A stretch of 64,000 nt of DNA from Candidatus Eiseniibacteriota bacterium (GTDB lineage: Bacteria > Eisenbacteria > RBG-16-71-46), in contig JAXLXR010000002.1 of assembly GCA_046327815.1 (NCBI GenBank), positions 382,422 to 446,421 of the forward strand. Direction: 5' to 3'. Shown one piece after another: positions 4,032 to 31,157 of the stretch; the stretch's first letter is position 1, and each line of letters begins with the position of its first letter. The notes below the pieces were generated by a model that saw nothing but the letters and a program-made list of their open reading frames with translations, was not told the origin of the DNA and searched no databases. A program made the translations under genes and the position numbers.

Positions 4032-5015
4032 ATGAACCCTCCCTTCCGTTCCGCCCGGCGCCTGACGGCTGCCGTTCTTGCGGCCCTGCTGGTCACCTGT
4101 GGCCTGGTCGCGAGCGTTCACCCGAGCTTCGCGCAGGAGCCGCCCCTCGCGGGGTGGTGGGGACGCTGCGGCACCTGGGACGGCGATTTCACCATGCTCA
4201 CGGACATCGCCGTGGATTCGCACGGGAACGTCTTCGTGATCGACGAGACCGCGAATCGCGTCCAGAAGTTCAGCAGCACGAGCACGTTCCTGGGGACGTG
4301 GGGCGGCTACGGCGAGGCCGACGGGCTGTTCTACTTCCCGAAGCAGGTCACGATCGCTCCCGACGGCAACGTGTTCGTGAGCTGCCAGCACGGCCTCCAG
4401 AAGTTCTCCCCGGACGGCGTGTTCCTTTCGCGCTGGGACACGTGGGGACCGAATCACTGGTCGTTCTACAATCCATTCGGTCCGGTCTTCGATGCCCAGG
4501 GCAACATGTACGTGCTGAACTCGGGCACGAGCCAGGTGCTGAAGTTCGATCCCGAGGGCCGCTATCTCACCAGCTGGGGGGCCGAGGGTTCCGGACCCGG
4601 GCAACTCCGCTGGCCGAGGTGCATCGCGATCGACCGCCTGGGTGATCTGTACGTGGTCGACAACGGCAATCACCGCATCGTGAAGTTCTCCACGGCGGGT
4701 CAGTACCTGCTGAGCTGGGGCAGCGCGGGCACCGGGCCGGGGCAGTTCGACCAGCCCTACGATGTGGCCATCGACGACGCCGGTGTCGTCTACGTACCCG
4801 ACCTGTACCTCGGGCGAGTCGCGACCTTCGATCGCTTCGGCAACTATCGGGGCGACTTCGGAACGGGTTTCCAGGGACCGATCACCGTGGCGCCCGGGCC
4901 CGACGGCACGCTGTTCGTGGGAGATGCCGGCCTCTGCCGAATCTGGGCTTACGGCGGCGCGCCCGTACCGGCGAGACGTTCGACGTGGGGGGCACTCAAA
5001 CTCTGTCATCGCTGA
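4032..5015 (+). CDS. NHL-repeat (six-bladed beta-propeller) secreted protein
   Basis: Signal peptide, then repeated NHL-type motifs (GNVFVIDETANRVQKF, GNMYVLNSGTSQVLKFD, GDLYVVDNGNHRIVKF, GVVYVPDLYLGRVATFD). RBS GGAGAGAGG lies upstream of the ATG at 4032. Confidence 0.8.
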   Translation: MNPPFRSARRLTAAVLAALLVTCGLVASVHPSFAQEPPLAGWWGRCGTWDGDFTMLTDIAVDSHGNVFVIDETANRVQKFSSTSTFLGTWGGYGEADGLFYFPKQVTIAPDGNVFVSCQHGLQKFSPDGVFLSRWDTWGPNHWSFYNPFGPVFDAQGNMYVLNSGTSQVLKFDPEGRYLTSWGAEGSGPGQLRWPRCIAIDRLGDLYVVDNGNHRIVKFSTAGQYLLSWGSAGTGPGQFDQPYDVAIDDAGVVYVPDLYLGRVATFDRFGNYRGDFGTGFQGPITVAPGPDGTLFVGDAGLCRIWAYGGAPVPARRSTWGALKLCHR

Positions 5016-5207
5016 GCGGGAGCGCGAGTACATGCGGTCGCGGGCCGTCGGGTCGCGATTCTGCGCGGCCGTGAGCGCCCCGGCCGATCACGCTTGCACG
5101 GCCGTCACGCCCGGACTTACGGTTCGCCCGGGCGAGGCAGCCGAGGACCTTGCCGAGAGTCGACCGGGGAGATCGCCCGCGTTCGCGGACGAGGAAGGCC
5201 GAGAATC

Positions 5208-7553
5208 ATGAATCCCCGTTGCATGTCGCGGCGCCTGTTCGTCGCCTGCGCGCTGCTGCTGGCCGTGAGTGTCGCCGGCTGTTCCCGGACCAAGGTGTTC
5301 TCGTGGTTGCCCGTGCAGGTGAACCAGCGCCCGAGCGTGGAGCTGACCAGTGCGCCGGCGAGCGAAACCGACACCGCGTACTACGCCTACGAGATGCACT
5401 GGACGGGCAGCGATCCCGACGGCGCGGTGGACCACTTCGAGTACGCGATCGATCCCGTCGCGGGCAGCGCGCCCGAGACCGCGTGGGTGGTCTCGCGCAT
5501 GCCGCAGGCGAAGATCCACTTCCGGGTCTGGCAGCCGGACACCACGCGCGCCGGCGCGCGCGTGATCGCGCCGCACACGTTCGTGATCCGCGCGCTGGAT
5601 GCGGCCGGGCTGGCGTCGCCGGTCGTGTCGCGCTCGTTCTACTCGTACACCGTCGCGCCCTCGGTGCGCATCACGAGTCCGCGCCCGAGCGTGTCGTCGT
5701 CGCTGCAGTCCGGCCCGGCCATGCGCGTGCACTGGGAAGGCGAGGACGTGGACGGTGTCTTCTCGCAGCGGCCCGTGCGCTACAAGTACCGGCTCATCCG
5801 GGCGAACGATCCCGAGTTCCCCGCGGGCGACGTGATCACCGATCCGCAGCGCGCGTGGCGGTATTTCTCGGGCACGAACTTCGCGGGCTGGGATTCGACC
5901 GGCGCCGATTCCGCGTTCGCCGACCTGCGCGGCCTGGTGCCGGCCGAGTCGCCCTACGTATTCGCGGTGGTCGCGCAGGACGAGGCCGGGGCATGGAGCC
6001 CCGACTGGAGCATGCAGACCAACCTGCTGCGGTTCATCGCGGAGTTGTCGGGCAACGCTTCGCCACGGCTCGCGGTCGTCAGTCCGTTCGTGCAGTACGC
6101 GCAGGCCCGGGGCGGGATCGATCCCACCGATGTGGCGAGCTGGCTGCCCATCGACGTGCCCGGGGACCAGCCGTTGGCGTTCGACTGGTGGGCCACGCCC
6201 ACGCTCGGCAACGACATCGTCGGATACCGCTGGCGGGTGGACGGCGAGTTCGCCGACGAAACGCCGCGCACGGACGAACGCACCGACTGGTCGCACTGGA
6301 GCCGCTGGAGCACGACCGCGACGGCGACCATCGGGCCGTTCGTCGGCGGCAGCTCGCACAAGCTCTACCTCGAGGCCAAGGACAACTTCGGTTCGATCGG
6401 GCTGCTGGTGGCGGACCTGCACGTGGTCGCCATGTCGCTCGCGCGCGACCTGCTGGTGGTGAACGACACGCGGCTCGAGCTCGACTCGTACAACTCGAAC
6501 GGGACCCGTCGCAACTACACGACCGCGTGGCCCGCGGTGGCCGAGCTCGACACGTTCCTCTGCGCCGTCGGCGGGTTCACGTGGCGCGGCACGGCTGCGG
6601 GCCGTGCGGGGCTGTCGCCACCCGGGCTGCTGTCGGGATACGCGTTCGACACGGTCGGCACCCGCTTCGGCCTCGAGGCGCCCACGCAGGCGCTGACGCT
6701 CGCGCGGCTCGGCCGCTACCGGCACGTGCTGTGGCTCGCGGACGTCACCGCGGCGCAGGCGAACGCGTTGCCCACGGCGATCGTCAACGGCATCAGCACG
6801 CTGCGCTACATGTGCGCGCCGGGCCACACCAACGTGCTCGCGAGCTACGCCGCGGCGGGAGGGCAGGTGTGGCTGGCGGGCGGCGGCGCCGCCTACTGCT
6901 CGCTCGTGGACTACAACGCCGTCGGCGTCCGGGCGAACGACAACATCTACGGCATCGGGTACACGGTGTTCTCGAACGGGGCCGGGGAGTTGCTCGAGGG
7001 CCGGCCGATGTTCGACCTGGCGCACTGGCGCAGTGAACTGGTCACGCAGTACGTGGTCACCAGCGTACGCCGGTCGCCGCGGGCCGTCGGCGGCTGGTCG
7101 CACGCGGGCTACCACGGCGAGCCGCTCACCGCACCCGACTACGCGCAGATGCCGGCCACGTTGCGGCGGCGCGCGCTCGCGCTCGGCGACACGCTGCCAC
7201 CCACGCGCGCCACGAGCCAGTCGACGACATTCTTCACTTCGGGAGCGTTCGGGGTGGAATACCTCACGCAGCCGAACGAAGTGCACGAGGACGTCACGCC
7301 GGATCCGGTCGTCGTGAACGAGCTCGCGACGCTCGACACGCTGTACGAGCTGTCGGGCGGTTCGCTCGCCACGCTCATCACGCAGCAGCGCCCGGCCGTC
7401 ATGACCTACTACCACGGCGTCGAATCGCCGCGGTTCGTGTTCTCGGGGCTGCCGCTCTGGGAATGGACGCGCGCCGACTGCGCCGGGCTGGTGGATTTCG
7501 TGCTGCAGCGCATCTGGGGCATGCAGCGAACGACGGCGGTGAGGGGGCGCTGA
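5208..7553 (+). CDS. hypothetical lipoprotein (781 aa)
   Basis: The N-terminus MNPRCMSRRLFVACALLLAVSVAGC has a lipobox-like LAVSVAGC. Long GC3-rich ORF. No domain recognised. Confidence 0.6.
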   Translation: MNPRCMSRRLFVACALLLAVSVAGCSRTKVFSWLPVQVNQRPSVELTSAPASETDTAYYAYEMHWTGSDPDGAVDHFEYAIDPVAGSAPETAWVVSRMPQAKIHFRVWQPDTTRAGARVIAPHTFVIRALDAAGLASPVVSRSFYSYTVAPSVRITSPRPSVSSSLQSGPAMRVHWEGEDVDGVFSQRPVRYKYRLIRANDPEFPAGDVITDPQRAWRYFSGTNFAGWDSTGADSAFADLRGLVPAESPYVFAVVAQDEAGAWSPDWSMQTNLLRFIAELSGNASPRLAVVSPFVQYAQARGGIDPTDVASWLPIDVPGDQPLAFDWWATPTLGNDIVGYRWRVDGEFADETPRTDERTDWSHWSRWSTTATATIGPFVGGSSHKLYLEAKDNFGSIGLLVADLHVVAMSLARDLLVVNDTRLELDSYNSNGTRRNYTTAWPAVAELDTFLCAVGGFTWRGTAAGRAGLSPPGLLSGYAFDTVGTRFGLEAPTQALTLARLGRYRHVLWLADVTAAQANALPTAIVNGISTLRYMCAPGHTNVLASYAAAGGQVWLAGGGAAYCSLVDYNAVGVRANDNIYGIGYTVFSNGAGELLEGRPMFDLAHWRSELVTQYVVTSVRRSPRAVGGWSHAGYHGEPLTAPDYAQMPATLRRRALALGDTLPPTRATSQSTTFFTSGAFGVEYLTQPNEVHEDVTPDPVVVNELATLDTLYELSGGSLATLITQQRPAVMTYYHGVESPRFVFSGLPLWEWTRADCAGLVDFVLQRIWGMQRTTAVRGR

Positions 7554-23186: not shown

Positions 23187-23340
23187 CGCCGCGTCACGGC
23201 ACGGAACGGCGGACCGGAACGCTCCGGTCCGCCGTTTCGCGTTGCCGGCGGGCCCCCTGCTACACTTTTCGCCGTTCCCGCGCCCTCGCCGGCGCTCGTT
23301 CCGGAGCCGTACCGGCCGCCCACACGAAAGCCCCACTTCC

Positions 23341-26300
23341 TTGCGCACACTCCTCCGTGGCGGCCTCGCCGCTCTCGTCGCCCTGTCCGCGTTCGCCGCC
23401 GCCGCCTTCGCGCTCTCGCCGAGCCCCGACTGGCGCGACCAGGTGATCTACCAGGTGATCACCGACCGCTTCGCGAACGGCAACACCGCGAACGACAACG
23501 CCGAAGGTTCGTACAACCCCAGCGACGGCGCCCGCACGCACGGCGGCGACTTCGTGGGTCTGCGCGGCAAACTCGACTACCTGCAGCAGCTGGGCGTGAC
23601 CACGCTGTGGATCTCGCCCGTCGTGATCAACACGGGTGGCGAGTACCACGGCTACGCGGCGAAGGACCTGTACACGATCTCGCCGCAGATGGGCACGAAG
23701 GCCGAACTGCAGGCGCTGGTCGCCGACTGCCACGCGCGCGGCATGTACGTGGTCATCGACGTGGTCTGCAACCACATGGGTACGCTGCTCACGAGCACGG
23801 CGCCGGGTTATCCCGCGTACAACTACCCGACCGGCTACCCGCTCTCGTGGCGCGACACGAACAAGAAGTACCCGGGCTTCTTCTCCGACCCCGCGAAGTT
23901 CCACAACTACGGCGACGTCTCGAACTGGTCGGGCACCGAGCAGGTCGTGGGCGCGATCTTCGGGCTCAACGACATCCGGACCGAGGACGCGAGCGTGCAG
24001 GCCGAGCTGGTCGCGGCGTACCGCCAGCTGATCGCCGACACCGACTGCGACGGCTTCCGCGTGGACACCGTGAAGCACGTGGACGGGGGGTTCTGGGACG
24101 TGTGGTGCCCGGGCATCCGCACGTGGGCCGCGACGCAGGGCAAGTCCGACTTCCTCATGTTCGGCGAAGTGTTCGACGGAGACGCGGCCGCGGGACCGTT
24201 CACCGGCACCATGGGCAGCGCCTCGTACCGGTTCGACTCGATGCTCTGGTACGGCATGTACTGGACCACGAACGGCGTGTGGGGCGGCAGCACGGCGCCC
24301 GTCGAGATCCAGAACACGTACGGCAACCTGTCGTACTTCGATCCCACGGTGCGCGAGCGGCTCGTCACGTTCCTCGACAATCACGACAACTCCCGCTTCC
24401 AGGGCGCCGGCGTCGCGAACCAGGACCAGTCGCGCGCGCGCACCGCGATCGCGTGGCTGCTCACCGCGCGCGCCATTCCCTGCCTGTACTACGGCACCGA
24501 GCAGGAGTTCGACGGCGGCAGCGATCCGTGGTGCCGCGAGGACATGTGGGCCGGGCAGTGGAACTTCGGTCCGTCGCTCGGCGACAACTTCAAGCAGTCG
24601 CACTCGCTGTTCCGCTGGACGCGCGACCTGATCGCGGTGCGCAAGCGCCACGACGCGCTGCGCCGCGGCGCGCTCACGCACCTGTACGCCGAAGCCGCGG
24701 GCGCGGGGCTGTACGCGATCGAGCGGCGCTCGGCGTCGGACACCGTCGTGGTCGCGATCAACAGCGCGAACGCGCCGGTCGCGCAGGTGCTCGCAACCGC
24801 GTGGCCGGCGGGCACGGTGCTCGTGGATGCGCTCGAACCGGCCGTGCGCGACACCGTGGCCGCCGGCGGCGTGCTGGTGCTGTCGCTGGGCGCGCGCGGG
24901 GCGCGCGTGTTCGAATCGCTCGCGGCGCACGCGGTCGCGGCGGCGCCCGTGCACGACCGCGTCGTCGTGACGGCGCAGTTCCCGGCGCACGACCAGTCGC
25001 TCAACGACCTGCGTTCGCCGCTCGTCGCGACGTTCGACCGCGCCGTGGACGGCGCGACGCTCGCCGCCTCGGCGTGGACCGCGCCCGCGGTGGCGGGTGC
25101 GTGGCAGGTGGACGGCCGCACGGCGAAGTTCTTCCCGGCCGCTCCGTGGCCGTCGTCCACCATCGTGTCGTGGGGATTCGGCGCGGCGCTGCGCGGCGCC
25201 GACGGCACGGCGCTGCGCGCGCCGTTCGAAGGCCGCTTCCGCACGACGGCCTATACGAGCGGCATCACGGTCGCGTCGGGCTTCGTCGCCGACCGCATCG
25301 CGCGCCAGAACCTGGGCGCGCCGGTCAGCGTGGTGGACGCGCCGTGGGCGGGCGAGCAGGCGATGCTCGTGGGCGACGTGAGCAAGGACCGCATCTTCAC
25401 GCTCACCACGGGCGGCGACTTCGGGCACTGGCTCGGCGACTCGCGCTGGACCAAGTCGTACGGACTCGTCCGCGGCTCCGACGGCCGCGTGACCGTGACC
25501 AACGGCACCGCGCTCTACGAAGTGGACGCGCGCCGGGTGGTCACGCCGCGTGCGGGCACGTACTCGGGCGCCAGCTTCGGCTCGCTCGCGCAGGCGGACG
25601 CCGCGTGGGGCGGGCAATTGCTGATGGGTGACCCGGCGGGCAACCGCATCGCCACGGTGACCGCGGCGAACACGCTCGTCACGTTCGCGAGCGGCGTGAA
25701 CGCGCCGCTCGGCATGGCGTTCGGTCCCGGCGGCGCGTGGGGCGCGTCGCTGTACGTGTGCGATCCCAACTACACCGCCGCGAACGCGTCACTCGACGGC
25801 GGCGCGCGGATCGCGCGGGTGACGAGCGGCGGCGCGGTGAGCACGTTCGTCGCCGACGCCACCGCGCTCAAGGGCGCGGGCGCGCTCGCGTTCGATCGCA
25901 CGGGCCGCTTCGGAGGCGACCTGTTCGTGGCCGACCTGCTCAACGAGCGCGTGCTGCGCGTCACCAGCGCGGGCGTGGTGAGCGTGTTCGCGACCGGGTT
26001 CGGCAACCTGTCGGGCACGCAGTGCATCGGTTTCGGTCCCGACGGCGCGCTGTACGTGGCCGACGCCGGCAGCGGCGATTCGTTCACGCGCCCGACCGGG
26101 CTGAACGCGCAGGGGCAGGTCGTGCGCATCGCGCCCACGGTGCTCGTCACCGGGGTCGCGCCCGGCGTCGCGTCCGGCCTGCGGCTCGCACCCGCATCGC
26201 CCAACCCGAGCGGCGGCGCGGTGGCGTTGCGCTGGACGCTGGCCGCGGGCGGTCGCGCGCGACTCGCGATCTACGACGTCTCGGGCCGTCACGTGCGCAC

Positions 26301-26451
26301 GCTCGCCGACGGCGCGATGACCGCGGGCGAGCACTCCACGCGCTGGGATGGCCGCGACGCGGCGGGCCGCCTCGCGGGCGCCGGGCTCTACTTCGCGCGC
26401 CTCGAAGCGGCGGGCGAGCGCCGCACCACGCGCGTGGTGCGGCTGCCCTGA
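23341..26451 (+). CDS. GH13 alpha-amylase-family catalytic domain fused to NHL repeats and a C-terminal Por/T9SS-type sorting domain
   Basis: GH13 regions GYHGY, DVVCNH, GFRVDTVKH, FLMFGEVFD and FLDNHD. Downstream NHL-like repeats, then the C-terminus LAIYDVSGRHVRTLADG...WDGRDAAGRLAGAGLYFARL...VVRL. Likely TTG start at 23341 giving the signal peptide (M)RTLLRGGLAALVALSAFAAAAFA. The track ORF starts at 23242. Confidence 0.8.
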   Translation: MRTLLRGGLAALVALSAFAAAAFALSPSPDWRDQVIYQVITDRFANGNTANDNAEGSYNPSDGARTHGGDFVGLRGKLDYLQQLGVTTLWISPVVINTGGEYHGYAAKDLYTISPQMGTKAELQALVADCHARGMYVVIDVVCNHMGTLLTSTAPGYPAYNYPTGYPLSWRDTNKKYPGFFSDPAKFHNYGDVSNWSGTEQVVGAIFGLNDIRTEDASVQAELVAAYRQLIADTDCDGFRVDTVKHVDGGFWDVWCPGIRTWAATQGKSDFLMFGEVFDGDAAAGPFTGTMGSASYRFDSMLWYGMYWTTNGVWGGSTAPVEIQNTYGNLSYFDPTVRERLVTFLDNHDNSRFQGAGVANQDQSRARTAIAWLLTARAIPCLYYGTEQEFDGGSDPWCREDMWAGQWNFGPSLGDNFKQSHSLFRWTRDLIAVRKRHDALRRGALTHLYAEAAGAGLYAIERRSASDTVVVAINSANAPVAQVLATAWPAGTVLVDALEPAVRDTVAAGGVLVLSLGARGARVFESLAAHAVAAAPVHDRVVVTAQFPAHDQSLNDLRSPLVATFDRAVDGATLAASAWTAPAVAGAWQVDGRTAKFFPAAPWPSSTIVSWGFGAALRGADGTALRAPFEGRFRTTAYTSGITVASGFVADRIARQNLGAPVSVVDAPWAGEQAMLVGDVSKDRIFTLTTGGDFGHWLGDSRWTKSYGLVRGSDGRVTVTNGTALYEVDARRVVTPRAGTYSGASFGSLAQADAAWGGQLLMGDPAGNRIATVTAANTLVTFASGVNAPLGMAFGPGGAWGASLYVCDPNYTAANASLDGGARIARVTSGGAVSTFVADATALKGAGALAFDRTGRFGGDLFVADLLNERVLRVTSAGVVSVFATGFGNLSGTQCIGFGPDGALYVADAGSGDSFTRPTGLNAQGQVVRIAPTVLVTGVAPGVASGLRLAPASPNPSGGAVALRWTLAAGGRARLAIYDVSGRHVRTLADGAMTAGEHSTRWDGRDAAGRLAGAGLYFARLEAAGERRTTRVVRLP

Positions 26452-26488
26452 ACCACGGCCGGCGCGGCTACGACGCCGCGCCGGACTC

Positions 26489-27316
26489 TTAGCGCCGCAC
26501 CGCCTGCTCGATCAGCGCGGTGTTCGGCACCGCGATCGTGGCGCCGTCGGCCTCGAGCAGCGTCTGCTGCGCCGAGATCGCCGCGATCACGCCGCGGCGA
26601 CCGTCCACCTCGAGCGTCTGGCCCGCGCCGAACACGCGGCGTGCGTAGAAGCCGGCGATCAGGTTGCGCGTCGCGTCGCGCGTGCCGAGCCCGAACGACA
26701 GCCCGAACGCGAGCGCGAGCCCCGAGAAGATCACGATCGTGAGGATGTTGAGGATGCGCGTGTCCACCTTGAGCTGGCCCAGCGCCACGATCGCGACCAC
26801 GAACAGCGTGAAGCCCGACAGTGCGCTGCCCAGCGAGCGCGCGAACGCGAGCCCGGAGTCGCGGGCGTAGTTCGTCGCCGCGTTGCCGAGGAACTGCCCG
26901 AGCGCGTTGCCGAGCACCAGGATGATGGCGGCCGAGAGCAGGTTGGGCAGGAACGCGAAGAACCCGGTGATGCCGTCGGAAATCGTCCGGAGCCCGACCA
27001 TGTCGGCGGCGCTCTGCACGAACAGCAGCAGCGCGAGCCAGAACACCATGCCGGGCACGCCGCGGCGCATGGGTTCGCGCACGCCGAGACGGCGGAAGCT
27101 GTCCATGAGGCCGGCGCGTTCGAGCGCCGCGTCGGCGCCGGCGCGCTGCATGACCTGCGCGAGCGAGAAGCGCACGAGCGAGGCGATCGCCCAGCCGATC
27201 AGCGTGAGGATCAGCGCGGTGATGAAGCGCGGTGCGAAGTTGACCGCTCCCGTGCCGAGCTGCTGCAGCACCTGCACGACGGCGCCCTGGATCGTGAACG
27301 TGGATTCCATGTGCAT
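26489..27316 (-). CDS. mechanosensitive ion channel, small MscS family
   Basis: Multiple TM helices followed by an MscS beta-domain (GQTLEVDGRRGVIAAISAQQTLLEADGATIAVPN). Start codons GTG 27319, ATG 27316 or ATG 27310 are all possible. Confidence 0.8.
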   Translation of the reverse strand: MHMESTFTIQGAVVQVLQQLGTGAVNFAPRFITALILTLIGWAIASLVRFSLAQVMQRAGADAALERAGLMDSFRRLGVREPMRRGVPGMVFWLALLLFVQSAADMVGLRTISDGITGFFAFLPNLLSAAIILVLGNALGQFLGNAATNYARDSGLAFARSLGSALSGFTLFVVAIVALGQLKVDTRILNILTIVIFSGLALAFGLSFGLGTRDATRNLIAGFYARRVFGAGQTLEVDGRRGVIAAISAQQTLLEADGATIAVPNTALIEQAVRR

Positions 27317-27558
27317 CACTCCTTGTCGCGGCGCTCGTCGCGCACGCCGAGCAGCTGGAAGAACGAACCGAGCATCTCGAGGAAGAACTCGCTGATGCCC
27401 CAGAAGGACATTTCCACGGCGCGCGCGCTCGTCTGGCGCGCGTTGACGCCGTCCATCACGCCGGCGAGGAAGCGTGCCGAAGGCTCCTCGCGCAGTTCCG
27501 CGAGCTCGCGCACGGGCTCGCCGGTACCGTCGTTCGTGGTGTCGCGCTCGTCGTTCAC
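27316..27558 (-). CDS. small hypothetical protein (80 aa) between the ECF sigma gene and mscS; candidate anti-sigma or coupling ORF
   Basis: The GTG start overlaps the sigma-factor stop (GTGA). Its own stop overlaps the mscS ATG by 1 nt. C-terminal hydrophobic stretch FWGISEFFLEMLGSFFQLLGV. No zinc-binding anti-sigma motif. Confidence 0.35.
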   Translation of the reverse strand: MNDERDTTNDGTGEPVRELAELREEPSARFLAGVMDGVNARQTSARAVEMSFWGISEFFLEMLGSFFQLLGVRDERRDKE

Positions 27559-28148
27559 GTCGCCTCCCGCGCGCCCGCCGTGGCGCCTGCCGTCGCCCGC
27601 GCCCAACGCGCGCGGAACTCGGCGCGCGCGCGGGCGATGCGCATCTTGACCGCCGACAGCCCGATCCCGAGCTCGCGGCGGATGTCCTCGTACGACAGTT
27701 CGTCCACGTCGCACATCACCAGCGGCACGCGCAGCGAATCGGGCAGCGAGTCGAGCACCTCGCGGATCAACGCCCGGCGCCGGTCGGCGTCGAGCCCGTC
27801 GAGCGCGCCGTCCTCCACGCGCAGTTCGGGCACCGCCGCGAGCTCGGGCTCGGACAGCTCCACGTACGTCTTCCCACGCTTCGACTGCAGGAAGTTCAGG
27901 CAGTGGTTCACCTTGATGCGCTGCAGCCACGTCGAGAACTTCGCGCGGCCCTCGAACGTGCCGAGCTTGAAGAACAGCTTCACGAACACTTCCTGCGCGA
28001 GATCTTCGGCGTCGTCGCGGGAACGGGTGAGATGGCGGCAGTTCACGAGCACCGCCGACTGGTGCCGTCGCACCAGCTCGGCGAACGCCTTGGTGTCGCC
28101 GTCGGGAGCCGCGAGTGCGGCGCGAACGAGAGTTTCGTCGGGATCCAT
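27555..28148 (-). CDS. RNA polymerase sigma-70 factor, ECF subfamily
   Basis: Sigma-2 region (DAEDLAQEVFVKLF...FSTWLQRIKVNHCLN) and sigma-4 region (SLRVPLVMCDVDELSYEDIRRELGIGLSAVKMRIARAR). RBS GGAAAGG before the ATG at 28148. Confidence 0.85.
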   Translation of the reverse strand: MDPDETLVRAALAAPDGDTKAFAELVRRHQSAVLVNCRHLTRSRDDAEDLAQEVFVKLFFKLGTFEGRAKFSTWLQRIKVNHCLNFLQSKRGKTYVELSEPELAAVPELRVEDGALDGLDADRRRALIREVLDSLPDSLRVPLVMCDVDELSYEDIRRELGIGLSAVKMRIARARAEFRARWARATAGATAGAREAT

Positions 28149-28778
28149 GAGCGACCTTTCCACTCGGACAGCGGCGGGGTGCCGAAAGTCACGTCGTTTT
28201 CACGAGGGCGACGGACACCGGCGACCGGAGGGGCTCCGGCACTCTATCCGGCGGCCATCCGGGAATGCATGTGACTTTCCGGAGTACTGCCGGTCTGAAG
28301 GTCGTGCCCGAACGGATCGGGCGGAACGCGGGCGCCGAGCCTCCTCGGCGTCGCACGCCGGACATCTCGCCTCAGGCGTTCCGTCCGCTCCTCGTGGGTA
28401 CGCAGGGAACGGTGCCCGCTCCGCGGTGTCACCCTCGGCCTGCGGCCGGCGTGCTTCCCCCGGCGCCGGCAGCCGGCGGCCCGTTCCCGTACGACGGTGA
28501 GGTGGCGTCCGAAGTGCCCACATCCAGGGAAGCAGGGGGGATACCGGGTACGGAGGGCGCCACCAGCCGATCCTCGCCGCGTCGAGCGGGCGGCGACGGT
28601 GCGCGCATGCAGCGGCGCCTGCGCGCGCCCGCGCGCGCACGCGCGCGGATCGGGGCGGGAAAAATCACCCGCCCCGGCGCGCTCAAGTGGGCTGCGGTGA
28701 TTCCGACACTCCCTCGTGCAGCCGCGGGTCCACGGACGGCCCGTCTTCCGACGACACCGTCCGACCGGAGGTGAGTGC

Positions 28779-29084
28779 ATGATCCGCCCCTTATCCGCGA
28801 CGCAGTCCGCGTTGCAGGGCCTGCAGGGTTCGCTGCGCCGGCTCGACCGCGCCGCCGAGACGATCGCGCGCGCCGGTCTCGACCTCGCGCCCGCCGCTCC
28901 GGTGCCGACCGACACCGCGGGCGGCACCACGGCCATCGTGCCGGCGACGAGCGACGACGACTTCCTCGACGCGATGGTGAACATGATGGTCGCGCAGCGC
29001 GCGTTCTCGGCTCAGCTGCGCATGCTCGAAACCGCGAACGACATGACGAAGGAAGCGATCGAACTGGGTGGTCGCGGGGCCTGA
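28779..29084 (+). CDS. small (101 aa) protein with a flagellar basal-body-rod C-terminal-like domain; isolated from any flagellar cluster
   Basis: Strong RBS GGAGGTGA 4 nt before the ATG. The C-terminal DFLDAMVNMMVAQRAFSAQLRMLETANDMTKEAIEL matches the Flg_bbr_C consensus (..MVN.I.AQRAYEAN.KVIQTADEML). The N-terminus is weakly rod-N-like. Confidence 0.5.
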   Translation: MIRPLSATQSALQGLQGSLRRLDRAAETIARAGLDLAPAAPVPTDTAGGTTAIVPATSDDDFLDAMVNMMVAQRAFSAQLRMLETANDMTKEAIELGGRGA

Positions 29085-29091
29085 TCCCGCG

Positions 29092-30573
29092 TCAGCGGCG
29101 CACCTGCAGCATGCCGCGGGCGAGTCCCTCGCGCGCGAACCCGAGCACGTCCACCTCGGCGGCCGCCGGGGCCACGTCGCACGCCTCGGCGAACGGCGCC
29201 ACCGCCTCGCGCAACGTGCGGGTGCCGTCGAGCAGGCCGAACAACAGCCAGCCGCGATCGCCCAGTTCGCGGTTCGTCGCGAACGCACCTTCGGGAAACT
29301 CGACGCGCAGCGAGGCCGGGGATTCGTGCGCGGGATGCGTCCACACGCCCGCGAACACCGCGCCGGGCAGGGGCGCGAGCACGCATTCGAGCAGCGCGTC
29401 GTCGGGCCGCGCGGCCGCGTGAATGCCCGCGAGCCAGTCGGCGAGCACGCCGGGTTCCGGCGGCTTGCGGCCGTGATGCTCGACCACGATGCGCGGCAGC
29501 ACGGCGCCGTCGGCGCCGGGCCGCTGCACCACGAGCAGCACGTTCGTGAACGCGGTGATGCCGAGCGCGTCGTAGTGGTCGCGGTACGCGCGGGCCTCGC
29601 GTTCCCATTCCGCGCCGAGCGACGGATGCCCGACCGCCGCGACGTGCGCGGCCGCCTGGTCGAGCGACGCGCCGGGCCGGCTGATCGCCGCATAGCCCGC
29701 GTGCGCGTCGCCGATCGCGGCGGCGATGCGCTCGGCCAGCCGCGTGCCGGTGCGCTGGGGGTAGTCGAACAGCAGCAGCGCCGTGCCGCCGGGGGCGAGC
29801 AGTCGCGCGGCGTCGTGCACGAACCGCCACGCGATCTCGTCCCCGTACGCGCCGCCGTGCAGGAACGTCACCGGCGCGGCGTGCGGGTCGGCCAGGTAGG
29901 GCGGCTGTCCCAGCACGAGGTCGTACGTCTCGCCGCGCAGCGCCGCGCCGACGTCGCTCGCGCGCACGTCGAGCGGCACGCGGTTGAGGCGGGCGTTGAA
30001 GGCCGCGAGCGTGAGCGCGCGGGCATTGACGTCGGTCGCCGTCGCGCGCGCGCCGCGTGCGGCGGCGGCGATCGCCAGCGAGGCGGCGCCGCAACCCAGG
30101 TCGAGCGCGCGCGCCGCGGCGAAACGCGCCGCGTACTCGTGCAGGATCAGCGTGGTGGCGCCCGGGCCCATGACCGCGAGCGTGCCACCCTCGAGCGGAT
30201 CGGAGACGAACCACTGCTCGCCGATCGGCTGCACCTGGAACGGCGAACGCACGAGGTGGGCCTGCGTACCGGGCAGCACGAGCACGTCGCGCAACACGGT
30301 CATGAGCGGCTCGCCGAGCGCGTCGCGCACGGCGTCTCGCGGCGTCTCGTAGCCGTACACGAACAGCCCGAGCAGCGTGGCCACCGGGCCGGGGGTGCGA
30401 TCCAGCACGCGCCGCACGAACGGATCGCGCACGCCGGGCAACTGCCCGGGTTGCGTGCGCTCGGTGAGCGCGAACGCGTCCGGGGTGAAGCCCCGTTCGC
30501 GGAACACGGCCGTGAGCGAGGCGAGCGTCGAGTCGTCGAGCGCGAGCAGCGGATCGAGGGGTGCGAGCGGCAT
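29092..30573 (-). CDS. class I SAM-dependent methyltransferase (methyltransferase-small-domain type, N-methyl or amino-MTase like)
   Basis: Rossmann motif ALDLGCGAASLAIAAAA. Catalytic LGQPPY (an NPPY-like D/N-PP-Y/F motif). Start ATG 30571-30573 verified on the reverse strand. Confidence 0.7.
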   Translation of the reverse strand: MPLAPLDPLLALDDSTLASLTAVFRERGFTPDAFALTERTQPGQLPGVRDPFVRRVLDRTPGPVATLLGLFVYGYETPRDAVRDALGEPLMTVLRDVLVLPGTQAHLVRSPFQVQPIGEQWFVSDPLEGGTLAVMGPGATTLILHEYAARFAAARALDLGCGAASLAIAAAARGARATATDVNARALTLAAFNARLNRVPLDVRASDVGAALRGETYDLVLGQPPYLADPHAAPVTFLHGGAYGDEIAWRFVHDAARLLAPGGTALLLFDYPQRTGTRLAERIAAAIGDAHAGYAAISRPGASLDQAAAHVAAVGHPSLGAEWEREARAYRDHYDALGITAFTNVLLVVQRPGADGAVLPRIVVEHHGRKPPEPGVLADWLAGIHAAARPDDALLECVLAPLPGAVFAGVWTHPAHESPASLRVEFPEGAFATNRELGDRGWLLFGLLDGTRTLREAVAPFAEACDVAPAAAEVDVLGFAREGLARGMLQVRR

Positions 30574-31157
30574 GCGGTCCTCCGGGAAGGTCGCAGCATG
30601 CCGCAAGCGCGCGGCCGGCCCAAGCGCGCAGTCGGCACGATCCCGCCGTGCAGGCGCGACGAACGCGGTGGGGCGGATCGCGCGGCCCGCCCCGCGGCGG
30701 CCCCGCGAACCGCGTACAGGCCGCAGGAACTGAGCGATCCGGCGCGGCGGATTCGCACAACGAACGGCCGTGCGGGGCACGGATGGGGCTTTCGCACGCC
30801 CACCTGCGCGTGGCATGACCGTTGATGGACCGGCGCGGTCCCGCCCGTGGTGGGCGGACCGAATCGAGGACCCCTCCCATGCACACGTTCCGCTTCGCCT
30901 CGCCGTCGCGCATCCGCTCGTACTTCCGGAGCCCGCGTTGAACGCGGCCGTGGCGGCGGCTGCCGCGTTCGCCCCTCCGGGCGCCTCGGGCCGTTCCGGC
31001 GGCCCGCTCCGGGCTGCTATGTTGCGCGCGCTGTGGAGCACGCGGCGGCGCGGCGCGAAGATGCCCGCGGTCCGCGAGCGCGCTCCCGGCACGGCCCGCC
31101 CGCGGCGCGGCCGTCCCGACGCGCGGCCGCGCTGACATCCGACCCGGAGACCGTCTC

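What the first reader, a model, noticed from the sequence alone, without database searches (positions are those of the whole stretch)
26489..28148. ECF sigma factor co-transcribed with an 80-aa ORF and an MscS channel
The ECF sigma gene ends in GTGA, overlapping the start of an 80-aa ORF. That ORF ends 1 nt into the start of a small MscS-family mechanosensitive channel gene. In the usual ECF layout the second gene is an anti-sigma factor. This candidate lacks zinc-binding (HxxxCxxC) or other known anti-sigma signatures, and ends in a hydrophobic/amphipathic stretch. Coupling an ECF regulon switch directly to a mechanosensitive channel suggests envelope or osmotic stress signalling, with the channel possibly acting as sensor or anti-sigma partner.
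Basis: partly seen in the sequence, partly recalled or inferred. Interest (0 to 1): 0.5.

Follow-up and report, generated by a model that had tools for sequence, protein, structure and literature searches.

The report
SigX/CfrX/CmpX-like stress sigma operon
This three-gene operon (a stress sigma factor, an 80-residue helical protein and a small MscS-type membrane channel) is real, is conserved across several bacterial phyla, and is a distant, rearranged counterpart of the Pseudomonas SigX-CfrX-CmpX module, whose mechanism is still unknown.

Summary
On the minus strand an ECF sigma gene (28148-27555), an 80-aa ORF (27558-27316, GTGA overlap) and a 273-aa MscS-type channel gene (27310-26489) form one tight operon.

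The trio is not specific to this genome. In GTDB species genomes, 76 of 80 loci encoding the channel's closest relatives also carry the sigma gene directly upstream. These loci come from Eisenbacteria, Krumholzibacteria, Fibrobacteraceae, Acidobacteriota, Gemmatimonadota and Myxococcota. In 76 of 78 evaluable loci the small ORF lies between the two genes.

The channel is a homologue of Pseudomonas aeruginosa CmpX (32% identity, E 5e-28, same length, same five hydrophobic segments). The sigma is 34% identical to SigX. The small protein matches CfrX only marginally (profile-profile P 0.008), but it has the same size, position and helix layout.

One unusual promoter, TGTGACTT-N-(T/G)GTC, lies upstream of the sigma gene in 57 of 75 loci and upstream of cfrX in 63 of 64 Pseudomonas-type loci. 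In other loci it also precedes mscL, BON-LysM, dodecin and DUF937 genes.

The system is therefore a distant variant of the known ECF102-type "mechanosensing" module. That the small protein acts as an anti-sigma factor or adaptor, and that the channel acts as the sensor, remains inference.

The parts
28167..28192 (-). ECF-type autoregulatory promoter of the operon: -35 GTGACTT (28192-28186), 18-nt spacer from GTGAC to GTC, -10 TGTC (28170-27167 region: 28170-28167). A GGAAAGG ribosome-binding site and ATG 28148 follow.
   Evidence: The position weight matrix was built from 56 other loci, without the window. It scores this site 26.0; the maximum over 20 shuffles of the window is 20.1. The same motif lies 30-100 nt upstream of the sigma start in 57 of 75 loci.
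27555..28148 (-). ECF sigma factor, 197 aa, with sigma-2 and sigma-4 domains only. SigX-like.
   Evidence: Pfam r2 and r4_2. TIGR02937 sigma70-ECF scores 77.5 bits against a cut-off of 42.9. It is 34% identical to P. aeruginosa SigX, E 1e-23. It shares the GLSA(V/T)KMRxKRA region-4.2 helix with SigX.
27316..27558 (-). 80-aa CfrX-like small protein. Layout: acidic disordered N-terminus; short helix (E-L-x-x-L); one long helix 30-70 made of a basic segment followed by an amphipathic hydrophobic segment with a conserved Glu61; charged tail.
   Evidence: Eight close homologues of 80-83 aa. 67 representative proteins at E<=1e-3; apart from two long, evidently spurious matches they are small stand-alone proteins of 52-112 aa. 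The family HMM finds it between sigma and channel in 82 of 86 loci. AF2 pLDDT 83.6. Conservation and hydrophobicity analysis. GC3 0.91. NCBI annotates it as hypothetical protein U0704_03715.
26489..27310 (-). CmpX-like MscS-superfamily membrane protein, 273 aa. It has five hydrophobic segments and a C-terminal beta domain, and no alpha/beta domain. Alternative starts lie at 27316 and 27319.
   Evidence: PF05552 matched twice. The family profile hits a solved 171-aa heptameric MscS-type channel (9seh, E 3e-13) and E. coli MscS residues 24-171 (E 1e-6). 32% identity to P. aeruginosa CmpX over 206 aa, E 5e-28, 273 aa against 274 aa. The hydrophobic segments lie at matching positions.
26461..26486 (.). 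10-bp G+C hairpin in the 37-nt gap between the convergent channel and alpha-amylase genes. It is a possible bidirectional terminator.
   Evidence: Fold energy -28 kcal/mol, z only -2.05. It has no T-tract, so the terminator scan did not call it.
28268..28298 (+). Second, divergent copy of the same ECF promoter motif (GTGAC 28271-28275, GTC 28293-28295), about 80 bp from the operon's own -35 element.
   Evidence: Matrix score 29.6, the best in the 64-kb window; only two sites in the window exceed the shuffle maximum. Divergent motif pairs recur in many related loci. The promoter block is invariant in five Eisenbacteria loci.
28500..28565 (+). Conserved structured RNA hairpin downstream of the divergent promoter. 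It is either a candidate sigma-dependent small RNA or a leader element.
   Evidence: MFE -40.7 kcal/mol, z -4.7. 20 pairs, 4 with compensatory changes, but from only two lineages. In L008 no protein gene follows it on that strand. No Rfam match.
28779..29084 (+). Small (about 101 aa) protein with a flagellar-rod C-terminal motif. It is the first protein gene downstream of the divergent promoter.
   Evidence: PF06429 Flg_bbr_C, E 2e-9. The MIRP(L/M)SAT start is conserved in L007. The gene is present only in the two closest relatives, L007 and L010.

Best explanation
The locus is an autoregulated three-gene stress module of the SigX/CfrX/CmpX type.

Shown:
- An ECF sigma gene, a CfrX-like 80-aa helical protein gene and a CmpX-like MscS-superfamily channel gene lie stop-to-start behind one ECF-type promoter (GTGACTT-N-TGTC).
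- This unit is conserved across at least five or six phyla.
- The channel is homologous to P. aeruginosa CmpX.
- The same unusual promoter motif precedes cfrX-cmpX in Pseudomonas.

Inferred:
- The small protein is the counterpart of CfrX. It acts as a minimal anti-sigma factor or adaptor. Its conserved N-terminal helix and basic helix would hold the sigma factor. Its C-terminal amphipathic helix would dock on, or between, the lipid-facing helices or the cytoplasmic loop of the heptameric channel.
- A change in membrane tension, fluidity or osmotic state would change the channel's conformation and release the sigma factor.
- The freed sigma would transcribe its own operon and a small regulon. 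In this genome that regulon is the divergent transcript (structured RNA, then a small Flg_bbr_C protein). In other phyla it is mscL, BON-LysM (Kbp/YgaU-like), dodecin and DUF937 genes.
For: Operon anatomy:
- A 4-nt GTGA overlap joins sigma and small ORF, and a 5-nt gap with an AAGGAG Shine-Dalgarno sequence precedes the channel start.
- No sigma-70-type promoter is found inside the operon. The scan returned one terminator-like site, inside the small ORF at 27380-27368, which is the number expected from shuffles.

Conservation:
- 76 of 80 genome loci have the sigma gene (43-87% identity) directly upstream of the channel gene.
- The small-protein HMM hits 82 of 86 loci, always between the two genes.
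- At least 28 loci repeat the same 4-nt sigma/small-ORF overlap.

Link to the Pseudomonas system:
- Channel against CmpX: E 5e-28, equal length, same five hydrophobic segments.
- Sigma against SigX: 34% identity, with a shared region-4.2 helix GLSAxKMRxKRA.
- Small family against CfrX family: hhalign P 0.0084, colinear over the full length. Only 1 of 200 column-shuffled controls reaches this score.
- AF2 gives similar helix orders for both proteins.
- TGTGAC(T/C)-N17/18-GTC lies at -46/-47 from cfrX in 63 of 64 Pseudomonas-type loci. This fits the published transcription start at -13 and the SigX dependence of cfrX-cmpX (PMC7641640).

Regulon: two matrix hits far above shuffles in the window. 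The motif precedes mscL in 12-13 of about 19 loci where mscL is adjacent, BON-LysM in 3 of 3, DUF937 in 2 and dodecin in 1.

Coupling pattern: the small gene stays next to the channel gene when the sigma gene moves (Pseudomonas), and stays with the sigma gene when the channel gene is on the other strand (L053).
Against: - There is no direct evidence that the small protein binds either partner. A complex could not be modelled here.
- The small protein has no detectable similarity to any known anti-sigma domain.
- Its match to CfrX is marginal, and BLASTP finds nothing.
- The sigma does not reach NCBI's SigX equivalog cut-off (78 bits against 194) and scores higher with other ECF models.
- In P. 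aeruginosa, overexpressing cmpX did not change sigX or cfrX expression (PMC10965496). CfrX has never been shown to be an anti-sigma factor (PMC8999054; 2026 review PMC13104619).
- Channel activity has not been shown for this protein. I also found no electrophysiology for CmpX in the papers I read.
- Co-transcription is inferred from gene spacing, not measured.
Confidence: 0.55

Rival explanations
1. Output-only model. The small protein and the channel are effectors of the response: a channel with an accessory subunit, made in greater amounts under stress. They are not regulators. The sigma factor would be controlled elsewhere, for example at transcription, by proteolysis, or by an unlinked anti-sigma factor.
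For: - cfrX-cmpX are SigX targets in Pseudomonas (PMC7641640).
- cmpX overexpression leaves SigX activity unchanged (PMC10965496).
- In L075 the channel gene stands alone behind the motif, with no sigma or small gene.
- The regulon contains another channel gene, mscL.
- The tightest and most universal coupling is between small protein and channel.
Against: - The position directly after an ECF sigma gene, with overlapping stop and start, is the classic anti-sigma position. It recurs in dozens of loci across phyla.
- In L053 the small gene stays with the sigma gene, not with the channel gene.
- The most conserved residues of the small protein lie in its soluble N-terminal two-thirds, not in the hydrophobic helix.
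- sigX transcription is reported to be reduced in a cmpX mutant (PMC10965496).
Confidence: 0.25
2. Classical membrane anti-sigma model. The small protein is a minimal single-pass anti-sigma factor of the CnrY / class II type. It would have an N-terminal cytoplasmic sigma-binding part, one transmembrane helix and a short outside tail, and be inactivated by proteolysis or by a periplasmic partner. The channel would be a co-regulated passenger.
For: - Size and layout resemble the short class II anti-sigma factors (my own knowledge of CnrY and NepR; not tested here).
- A conserved Arg-Arg pair (92-93%) sits just before the hydrophobic segment.
- AF2 predicts one long helix covering that segment.
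Against: - The hydrophobic segment is weak for a transmembrane helix: the median 19-residue Kyte-Doolittle mean is 1.30, below 1.6 in 58 of 75 members.
- It carries an 83%-conserved Glu and a polar stripe at i, i+4, i+7, i+11, and is followed by a tail rich in Lys/Arg as well as Asp/Glu.
- Reviews describe CfrX as soluble (PMC8999054).
- No sequence match to any anti-sigma family.
Confidence: 0.12
3. The 80-aa ORF is a chance open frame in a 72% G+C genome, and the sigma and channel genes are simply neighbours.
For: High-G+C DNA produces many long spurious ORFs; several are visible. Whole-length dN/dS against close relatives is only moderately low, at 0.4-0.8.
Against: - A family HMM detects the ORF at E 1e-13 to 1e-28 in 82 of 86 loci from several phyla, always in the same position.
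- 67 representative proteins match the profile at E<=1e-3 and, apart from two long spurious matches, are small stand-alone proteins.
- GC3 is 0.91 in this frame, like the neighbouring genes.
- AF2 gives a confident helix.
- A GGGAGG ribosome-binding site lies 4 nt upstream of the GTG start.
Confidence: 0.02

Closest known systems
Pseudomonas aeruginosa SigX (PA1776) - CfrX (PA1774) - CmpX (PA1775) module, ECF group ECF102 (PMC7826278, PMC7641640, PMC8999054)
   Same: - An ECF sigma sits next to an approximately 80-aa non-canonical putative anti-sigma protein and a 273/274-aa MscS-type protein. That protein has two PF05552 units, five hydrophobic segments and a beta domain, and no alpha/beta domain.
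- Small gene and channel gene are stop/start-coupled in both.
- Both use the same GTGAC-N17/18-GTC promoter motif.
- Both have the same region-4.2 helix in the sigma.
- The same mechanosensing hypothesis has been proposed.
   Different: - Gene order is sigma-small-channel here, against small-channel-sigma in Pseudomonas.
- The motif precedes the sigma gene here, so the sigma gene itself is autoregulated.
- There are no cmaX (CorA) or oprF neighbours.
- The sigma is only 34% identical to SigX and is below NCBI's SigX equivalog cut-off.
- The small protein is so diverged that only a marginal profile-profile match remains.
- The hosts are Eisenbacteria, Acidobacteriota, Gemmatimonadota and related phyla rather than Gammaproteobacteria.
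MscS (E. coli YggB) and minimal MscS-type channels with solved structures (2oau, 6rld; 171-aa heptamer 9seh/9sdg)
   Same: The C-terminal half (residues about 117-273) aligns with MscS TM1-TM3 plus the beta domain. Like the 171-aa solved channel, the protein ends right after the beta domain.
   Different: - It has two extra N-terminal transmembrane segments and a conserved cytoplasmic loop of about 35 residues.
- It has no alpha/beta domain and no C-terminal barrel.
- The Pfam PF00924 score is below the gathering cut-off.
- Gating has not been tested.
Short (class II-like) anti-sigma factors such as CnrY and NepR
   Same: It is a small helical protein encoded directly after its ECF sigma gene. 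It has a short N-terminal helix followed by a longer helix. This resemblance rests on my own knowledge of those families.
   Different: No sequence or fold match to any solved or Pfam-curated anti-sigma factor. The hydrophobic helix is amphipathic rather than a clear membrane span. Unlike those factors, it is always paired with an MscS-type channel.
B. subtilis SigY-YxlC-YxlD (ECF31), where an extra membrane protein is needed besides the anti-sigma factor (PMC7826278)
   Same: The concept of a sigma regulated by a small protein plus a second co-encoded membrane protein.
   Different: The proteins are unrelated. No homology was found or expected.

Membership tests
ECF sigma factors (sigma-70 group 4) | Sigma-2 and sigma-4 domains only, about 200 aa, matching the ECF superfamily model | tested here: met
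   PF04542 and PF08281 are matched with no region 3. TIGR02937 scores 77.5 bits against a cut-off of 42.9.
SigX of Pseudomonas (NCBIfam equivalog NF007222) / ECF102 | Score above the curated SigX equivalog cut-off | tested here: not met
   The window sigma scores 78.3 bits against a cut-off of 194. The true P. aeruginosa SigX retrieved here scores 386.9 bits.
SigX of Pseudomonas (NCBIfam equivalog NF007222) / ECF102 | Assignment by the ECF Hub group HMM (ECF102 and its subgroups s1, s2, s5) | not testable with these tools
   The ECF Hub models and the supplements of PMC7826278 are not available here.
SigX of Pseudomonas (NCBIfam equivalog NF007222) / ECF102 | Conserved neighbouring CmpX-type mechanosensitive channel gene | tested here: met
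   BLASTP against CmpX gives E 5e-28 with the same length and layout. The adjacency holds in 76 of 80 loci.
SigX of Pseudomonas (NCBIfam equivalog NF007222) / ECF102 | Neighbouring CfrX-type small protein | tested here: inconclusive
   No BLASTP hit. hhalign P 0.0084, with 1 of 200 permuted controls as good. Size, position and helix order are the same.
SigX of Pseudomonas (NCBIfam equivalog NF007222) / ECF102 | cmaX upstream and oprF downstream (seven-gene cluster of subgroup s1) | tested here: not met
   The window has an alpha-amylase gene and a small Flg_bbr_C gene as neighbours. Related loci likewise have no CorA or OprF gene.
SigX of Pseudomonas (NCBIfam equivalog NF007222) / ECF102 | Same target promoter as the SigX-dependent cfrX-cmpX unit | tested here: met
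   GTGAC-N17/18-GTC is found upstream of the sigma gene in 57 of 75 loci and upstream of cfrX in 63 of 64 Pseudomonas-type loci. That SigX itself uses this element is inferred from the published transcription start at -13 and the SigX dependence of the unit (PMC7641640).
MscS superfamily | Pore-lining TM3 followed by the beta (Sm-like) domain, detectable by sequence profile | tested here: met
   The family profile hits E. coli MscS residues 24-171 (E 1e-6) and a 171-aa solved heptameric channel (E 3e-13).
MscS superfamily | Pfam PF00924 gathering score | tested here: not met
   15.5 bits against 20.2. Most homologues are listed with PF05552 only.
MscS superfamily | Cytoplasmic alpha/beta domain and C-terminal barrel of canonical MscS | tested here: not met
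   The protein ends at the end of the beta domain: alignment positions 267-273 correspond to MscS residue 171.
MscS superfamily | Heptameric, tension-gated conductance | not testable with these tools
   This needs patch-clamp recording or a solved or multimer structure.
Known anti-sigma domains (ASD class I / zf-HC2, RskA, NepR, CnrY and others) | Sequence match to a curated anti-sigma family, or the Zn-binding HxxxCxxC motif | tested here: not met
   No Cys or His in the sequence. None of 72 family members matches any anti-sigma Pfam family even at E<=10. No PDB sequence or fold match.
Known anti-sigma domains (ASD class I / zf-HC2, RskA, NepR, CnrY and others) | Binds and inhibits the cognate sigma factor | not testable with these tools

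The most novel reading that the evidence does not exclude
The CfrX-like helix and the CmpX-like heptameric channel together form a direct mechano-transcriptional switch. The channel's tension-dependent conformation would sequester or release an ECF sigma factor through the small adaptor. This switch would be ancient and shared by Pseudomonas and at least five other phyla. Its core regulon would include mscL and, in Eisenbacteria, a sigma-dependent structured small RNA.
Probability: 0.3. Interest if true: 0.75.

Novelty: new variant of a known kind. Interest (0 to 1): 0.38.

Why it matters
The mechanism of SigX/CfrX/CmpX has stayed unresolved in Pseudomonas for more than twenty years. The SigX promoter consensus is still described as not precisely defined (PMC7641640).

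This work adds four things:
- The module exists, in a simpler three-gene autoregulated form, in Eisenbacteria, Krumholzibacteria, Fibrobacteraceae, Acidobacteriota, Gemmatimonadota and Myxococcota.
- It comes with a clear shared promoter motif, TGTGAC(T/C)-N17/18-GTC.
- It provides a comparative regulon (mscL, BON-LysM, dodecin, DUF937).
- It provides an alignment of about 140 diverse small-protein sequences, which shows which residues matter (P15, L19, L22, F30, V34, I38, R40, R41, E61).

These give concrete handles for testing whether an MscS-type channel can gate a sigma factor. For this particular genome the result is mainly a functional annotation of three genes, two of them (small ORF and channel) annotated as hypothetical proteins.

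Tried and rejected
- Pfam and NCBIfam scans of the small ORF, and a Pfam scan of 72 family members at E<=10, returned no family.
- The PDB sequence profile search and a Foldseek search with the small-protein model found nothing. A single long helix is not informative for fold search.
- BLASTP of the small ORF against CfrX found no alignment. Only profile-profile comparison gave a marginal signal.
- I looked for bridging homologues in PLSDB plasmids. CmpX gave no hit. The window channel gave only 25%-identity paralogues without a sigma or small gene, for example a Pseudoalteromonas chromid where the gene lies next to MgtE-like genes.
- The last large protein search, with a CfrX profile, listed only Pseudomonas "CrfX protein" entries in its top 120, so it yielded no intermediates.
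- A phylogeny to place the sigma relative to SigX was abandoned, because only three outgroup ECF sigmas exist in the fetched DNA.
- The supplements of the ECF classification paper are not held, so the ECF group could not be read off. The oprF/SigX promoter paper PMC3416264 is also not held.
- The position weight matrix built on the non-Pseudomonas loci missed the Pseudomonas sites. They have CC/CT after GTGAC and CGTC at -10. A core-pattern search found them.
- The Rfam search of the divergent leader returned only a chance-level hit.
- No sigma-70-type promoter lies inside the operon. The only terminator-like site (27380-27368) is the number expected from shuffles.
Full report
**Observation**

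The window is 72% G+C. The best database match identifies it as a Candidatus Eisenbacteria (Eiseniibacteriota) metagenome-assembled genome, on a contig of 507,945 bp.

Three genes lie on the minus strand:
- An ECF sigma gene runs from ATG 28148 to TGA 27557-27555 (197 aa). Pfam Sigma70_r2 scores E 8e-15 and Sigma70_r4_2 scores E 2e-11.
- Its stop lies within GTGA. The GTG at 27558 opens an 80-codon ORF that ends at TGA 27318-27316.
- The next gene encodes a membrane protein ending at 26489. It has two PF05552 units and a sub-threshold PF00924 beta-domain match.

The better-supported start, however, is ATG 27310. Homologues begin at that residue, NCBI annotates 273 aa, and an AAGGAG sequence sits 8 nt upstream.

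The 80-aa product has no Cys or His and matches no Pfam or NCBIfam model. Its GC3 is 0.91, against 0.90 and 0.96 for its neighbours. A GGGAGG sequence lies 4 nt before the GTG start.

No sigma-70-type promoter is found inside the unit. The single terminator-like site, inside the small ORF at 27380-27368, is no more than shuffles give. A 10-bp G+C hairpin fills the 37-nt gap to the convergent alpha-amylase gene.

**Conservation**

The small ORF has eight close homologues of 80-83 aa. On longer contigs they always lie between a sigma gene and a PF05552 protein gene.

A profile search of 1.84 billion representative proteins found 67 matches at E<=1e-3. Apart from two long, evidently spurious matches, all are stand-alone proteins of 52-112 aa.

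The channel family is larger and has a very uniform length of 267-286 aa. A scan of one genome per GTDB species with a channel alignment found 458 relatives. The best 80 were fetched. They come from Eisenbacteria, Krumholzibacteria, Fibrobacteraceae, many Acidobacteriota, Gemmatimonadota including Longimicrobiales, Myxococcota and others.

- In 76 of these 80 loci a sigma gene 43-87% identical to the window's lies directly upstream on the same strand. Two of the four exceptions are contigs that end inside the channel gene.
- An HMM of the small protein hits 82 of all 86 loci at E 1e-13 to 1e-28, always in the gap between sigma and channel.
- At least 28 loci repeat the 4-nt stop/start overlap between sigma and small ORF.

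The ORF is therefore a real, maintained gene.

**The parts**

*The channel.* It has five hydrophobic segments. A profile of the family aligns its C-terminal half (about 117-273) with E. coli MscS residues 24-171, that is TM1-TM3 plus the beta domain (E 1e-6). It aligns better with a solved 171-aa heptameric MscS-type channel that also ends after the beta domain (9seh and related entries, E 3e-13). The canonical alpha/beta domain is absent. An extra pair of transmembrane segments and a conserved loop of about 35 residues are added at the N-terminus.

*The small protein.* AlphaFold2, run with 72 aligned sequences, predicts the following with mean pLDDT 83.6:
- a disordered acidic N-terminus;
- a short helix at 17-20;
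- one long helix at 30-70.

The best-conserved positions are P15, L19, L22, F30, V34, I38, R40, R41 and E61.

The hydrophobic end is weak for a membrane span. Its median 19-residue Kyte-Doolittle mean is 1.30, and 58 of 75 members fall below 1.6. It has a polar stripe with a period of about 3.6 residues. It therefore looks amphipathic rather than like a classical transmembrane helix.

None of 72 family members matches any Pfam family, anti-sigma families included. Nothing matches in the PDB by sequence or by fold.

**Relation to the known system**

The literature describes one ECF sigma associated with an MscS-type channel: P. aeruginosa SigX (group ECF102). It is encoded in cmaX-cfrX-cmpX-sigX-oprF. 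CfrX (84 aa) is a putative, unproven anti-sigma factor, and CmpX is an MscS homologue (PMC7826278, PMC7641640, PMC8999054, PMC10965496).

To compare real sequences, I used an OprF sequence recalled from memory only as a probe of metagenome contigs. It retrieved authentic loci at 100% identity. In locus L087 the genes are CmaX, CfrX (4149-4403), CmpX (4406-5230), SigX (5302-5892) and OprF. The sigma there scores 387 bits on NCBI's SigX equivalog model.

Comparisons with the window proteins:
- Channel against CmpX: 32% identity over 206 residues, E 5e-28, 273 aa against 274 aa, hydrophobic segments at the same positions.
- Sigma against SigX: 34% identity, E 1e-23. The window sigma scores only 78 bits on the SigX equivalog model (cut-off 194) and slightly higher on several other ECF models. 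The two groups share the region-4.2 helix GLSA(V/T)KMRxKRA. To my knowledge this differs from the usual (V/L)GT(V/I)(K/R)SR of RpoE- or SigW-type ECFs.
- Small protein against CfrX: nothing by BLASTP. With enlarged families (144 and 177 sequences), hhalign gives score 16.8 and P 0.0084. The alignment is colinear from the N-terminal helix through the RV...RR/NRQ helix into the hydrophobic helix. Only 1 of 200 column-permuted controls reaches that score. The AF2 model of CfrX has low confidence (pLDDT 60) but shows the same order of helices.

I regard homology of the small proteins as probable, not proven.

**Promoter and regulon**

An enumeration of bipartite words upstream of the sigma genes gave GTGAC...TGTC in 34 loci, against a maximum of 10 in shuffles. 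With two mismatches allowed, (A)TGTGACTTT followed by (T/G)GTC(T/C), with 17-18 nt between GTGAC and GTC, lies 30-100 nt upstream of the start codon in 57 of 75 loci.

A matrix was built without the window's own site. It finds exactly two outstanding sites in the 64-kb window, against a shuffle maximum of 20.1:
- the operon's own promoter (minus strand, GTGACTT 28192-28186, TGTC 28170-28167; score 26.0);
- a divergent copy on the plus strand at 28268-28298 (score 29.6).

The same core, (T)GTGAC(C/T)-N17/18-(C)GTC, lies at a fixed -46/-47 from cfrX in 63 of 64 distinct Pseudomonas-type loci. This fits the published but unvalidated transcription start 13 nt upstream of cfrX, and the SigX dependence of cfrX-cmpX. 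A -35 element reading GTGAC rather than the usual GAAC-type ECF element (my knowledge) is a distinctive shared trait. It is the strongest argument that the two systems are the same kind of machine.

Many related loci carry a back-to-back pair of motifs or extra copies. The genes behind those copies are as follows:
- mscL is adjacent in about 19 of 80 loci, with the motif 40-130 nt upstream of its start in 12-13 of them;
- BON-LysM proteins of the Kbp/YgaU type, 3 of 3;
- DUF937 proteins, 2;
- dodecin, 1.

This supports an osmotic or membrane-stress role. None of these genes lies in this window.

**Mechanism: shown and inferred**

Shown:
- a conserved, tightly packed operon behind its own ECF-type promoter, implying autoregulation if this sigma reads that motif;
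- homology of the channel to CmpX;
- a shared promoter motif;
- a comparative regulon that includes a bona fide mechanosensitive channel gene.

Inferred:
- The small protein occupies the anti-sigma position. Its conserved soluble helices would bind the sigma. Its amphipathic C-terminal helix would associate with the channel or the membrane.
- Channel conformation, set by membrane tension or fluidity, would control release of the sigma.

Some weak comparative support exists. The small gene stays coupled to the channel gene where the sigma gene has moved (Pseudomonas). It stays with the sigma gene where the channel gene lies on the other strand (L053).

Against the inference:
- No interaction data exist.
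- cmpX overexpression does not alter SigX activity in P. aeruginosa.
- The channel gene can stand alone behind the motif (L075).

The main rival is that the small protein and channel are outputs of the response rather than regulators. A second rival is a CnrY-like single-pass anti-sigma factor with the channel as a passenger.

**Novelty and verdict**

However, the idea of an ECF sigma coupled to a small non-canonical partner and an MscS-type channel is already described for SigX/CfrX/CmpX. The ECF classification paper already noted that the channel is conserved in several ECF102 subgroups.

What is different here:
- the gene order (sigma first, so the whole unit is autoregulated);
- the absence of cmaX and oprF;
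- the phyla involved;
- the degree of divergence.

I therefore file it as a new variant of a known kind. It has moderate interest, mainly as comparative leverage on an unresolved mechanism.

Noticed in passing
window 28268-28298 (+): A second, divergent copy of the ECF promoter motif (CATGTGACTTTCCGGAGTACTGCCGGTCTGA) lies about 80 bp from the operon's own -35 element. It matches the cross-phylum consensus better than the operon's own promoter does. Back-to-back motif pairs recur in many related loci.
   Followed up: yes
window 28500-28565 (+); also L007, L010, L008, L005, L006: A conserved 66-nt hairpin lies about 200 nt downstream of the divergent promoter (MFE -40.7 kcal/mol, z -4.7). Its closing stem shows compensatory changes between two Eisenbacteria lineages. 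In L008 no protein gene follows on that strand. It may therefore be a sigma-dependent small RNA rather than a leader. No Rfam family matches.
   Followed up: partly
window 28779-29084 (+): A small (about 101 aa) protein carries a flagellar basal-body rod C-terminal motif (PF06429, E 2e-9) and a rod-like N-terminus. It is encoded about 480 nt downstream of the divergent promoter. It is present only in the two closest relatives (L007, L010). Its function is unknown.
   Followed up: partly
L027, L035, L039, L054, L055, L066, L067, L069, L074, L081, L085 and others: mscL (large-conductance mechanosensitive channel) lies within 4 kb of the module in about 19 of 80 loci. It is preceded by the same ECF promoter motif in 12-13 of them. 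BON-LysM (Kbp/YgaU-like), dodecin and DUF937 genes also carry the motif.
   Followed up: yes
L087 4102-4127 and 62 other Pseudomonas-type loci: A conserved GTGAC(C/T)-N17/18-CGTC element lies 46-47 nt upstream of cfrX in 63 of 64 Pseudomonas-type loci. It is a concrete candidate for the SigX-dependent proximal promoter that the literature calls undefined.
   Followed up: yes
window 23242-26451 (+): A 1069-aa alpha-amylase-family protein with a C-terminal FlgD_ig-like domain lies convergent to the channel gene. The same neighbour is present in the related locus L005.
   Followed up: no
window 29092-31092 (-): A 666-aa ORF with a SAM-methyltransferase-like motif (LDLGCGAASL ... QPPY) is conserved next to the module in L007 and L008. 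It was not analysed further.
   Followed up: no
L030, L038, L041, L058, L060, L074: Some loci carry a second, distant PF05552-type paralogue (25-29% identity over the N-terminal half) within a few kb of the module.
   Followed up: no
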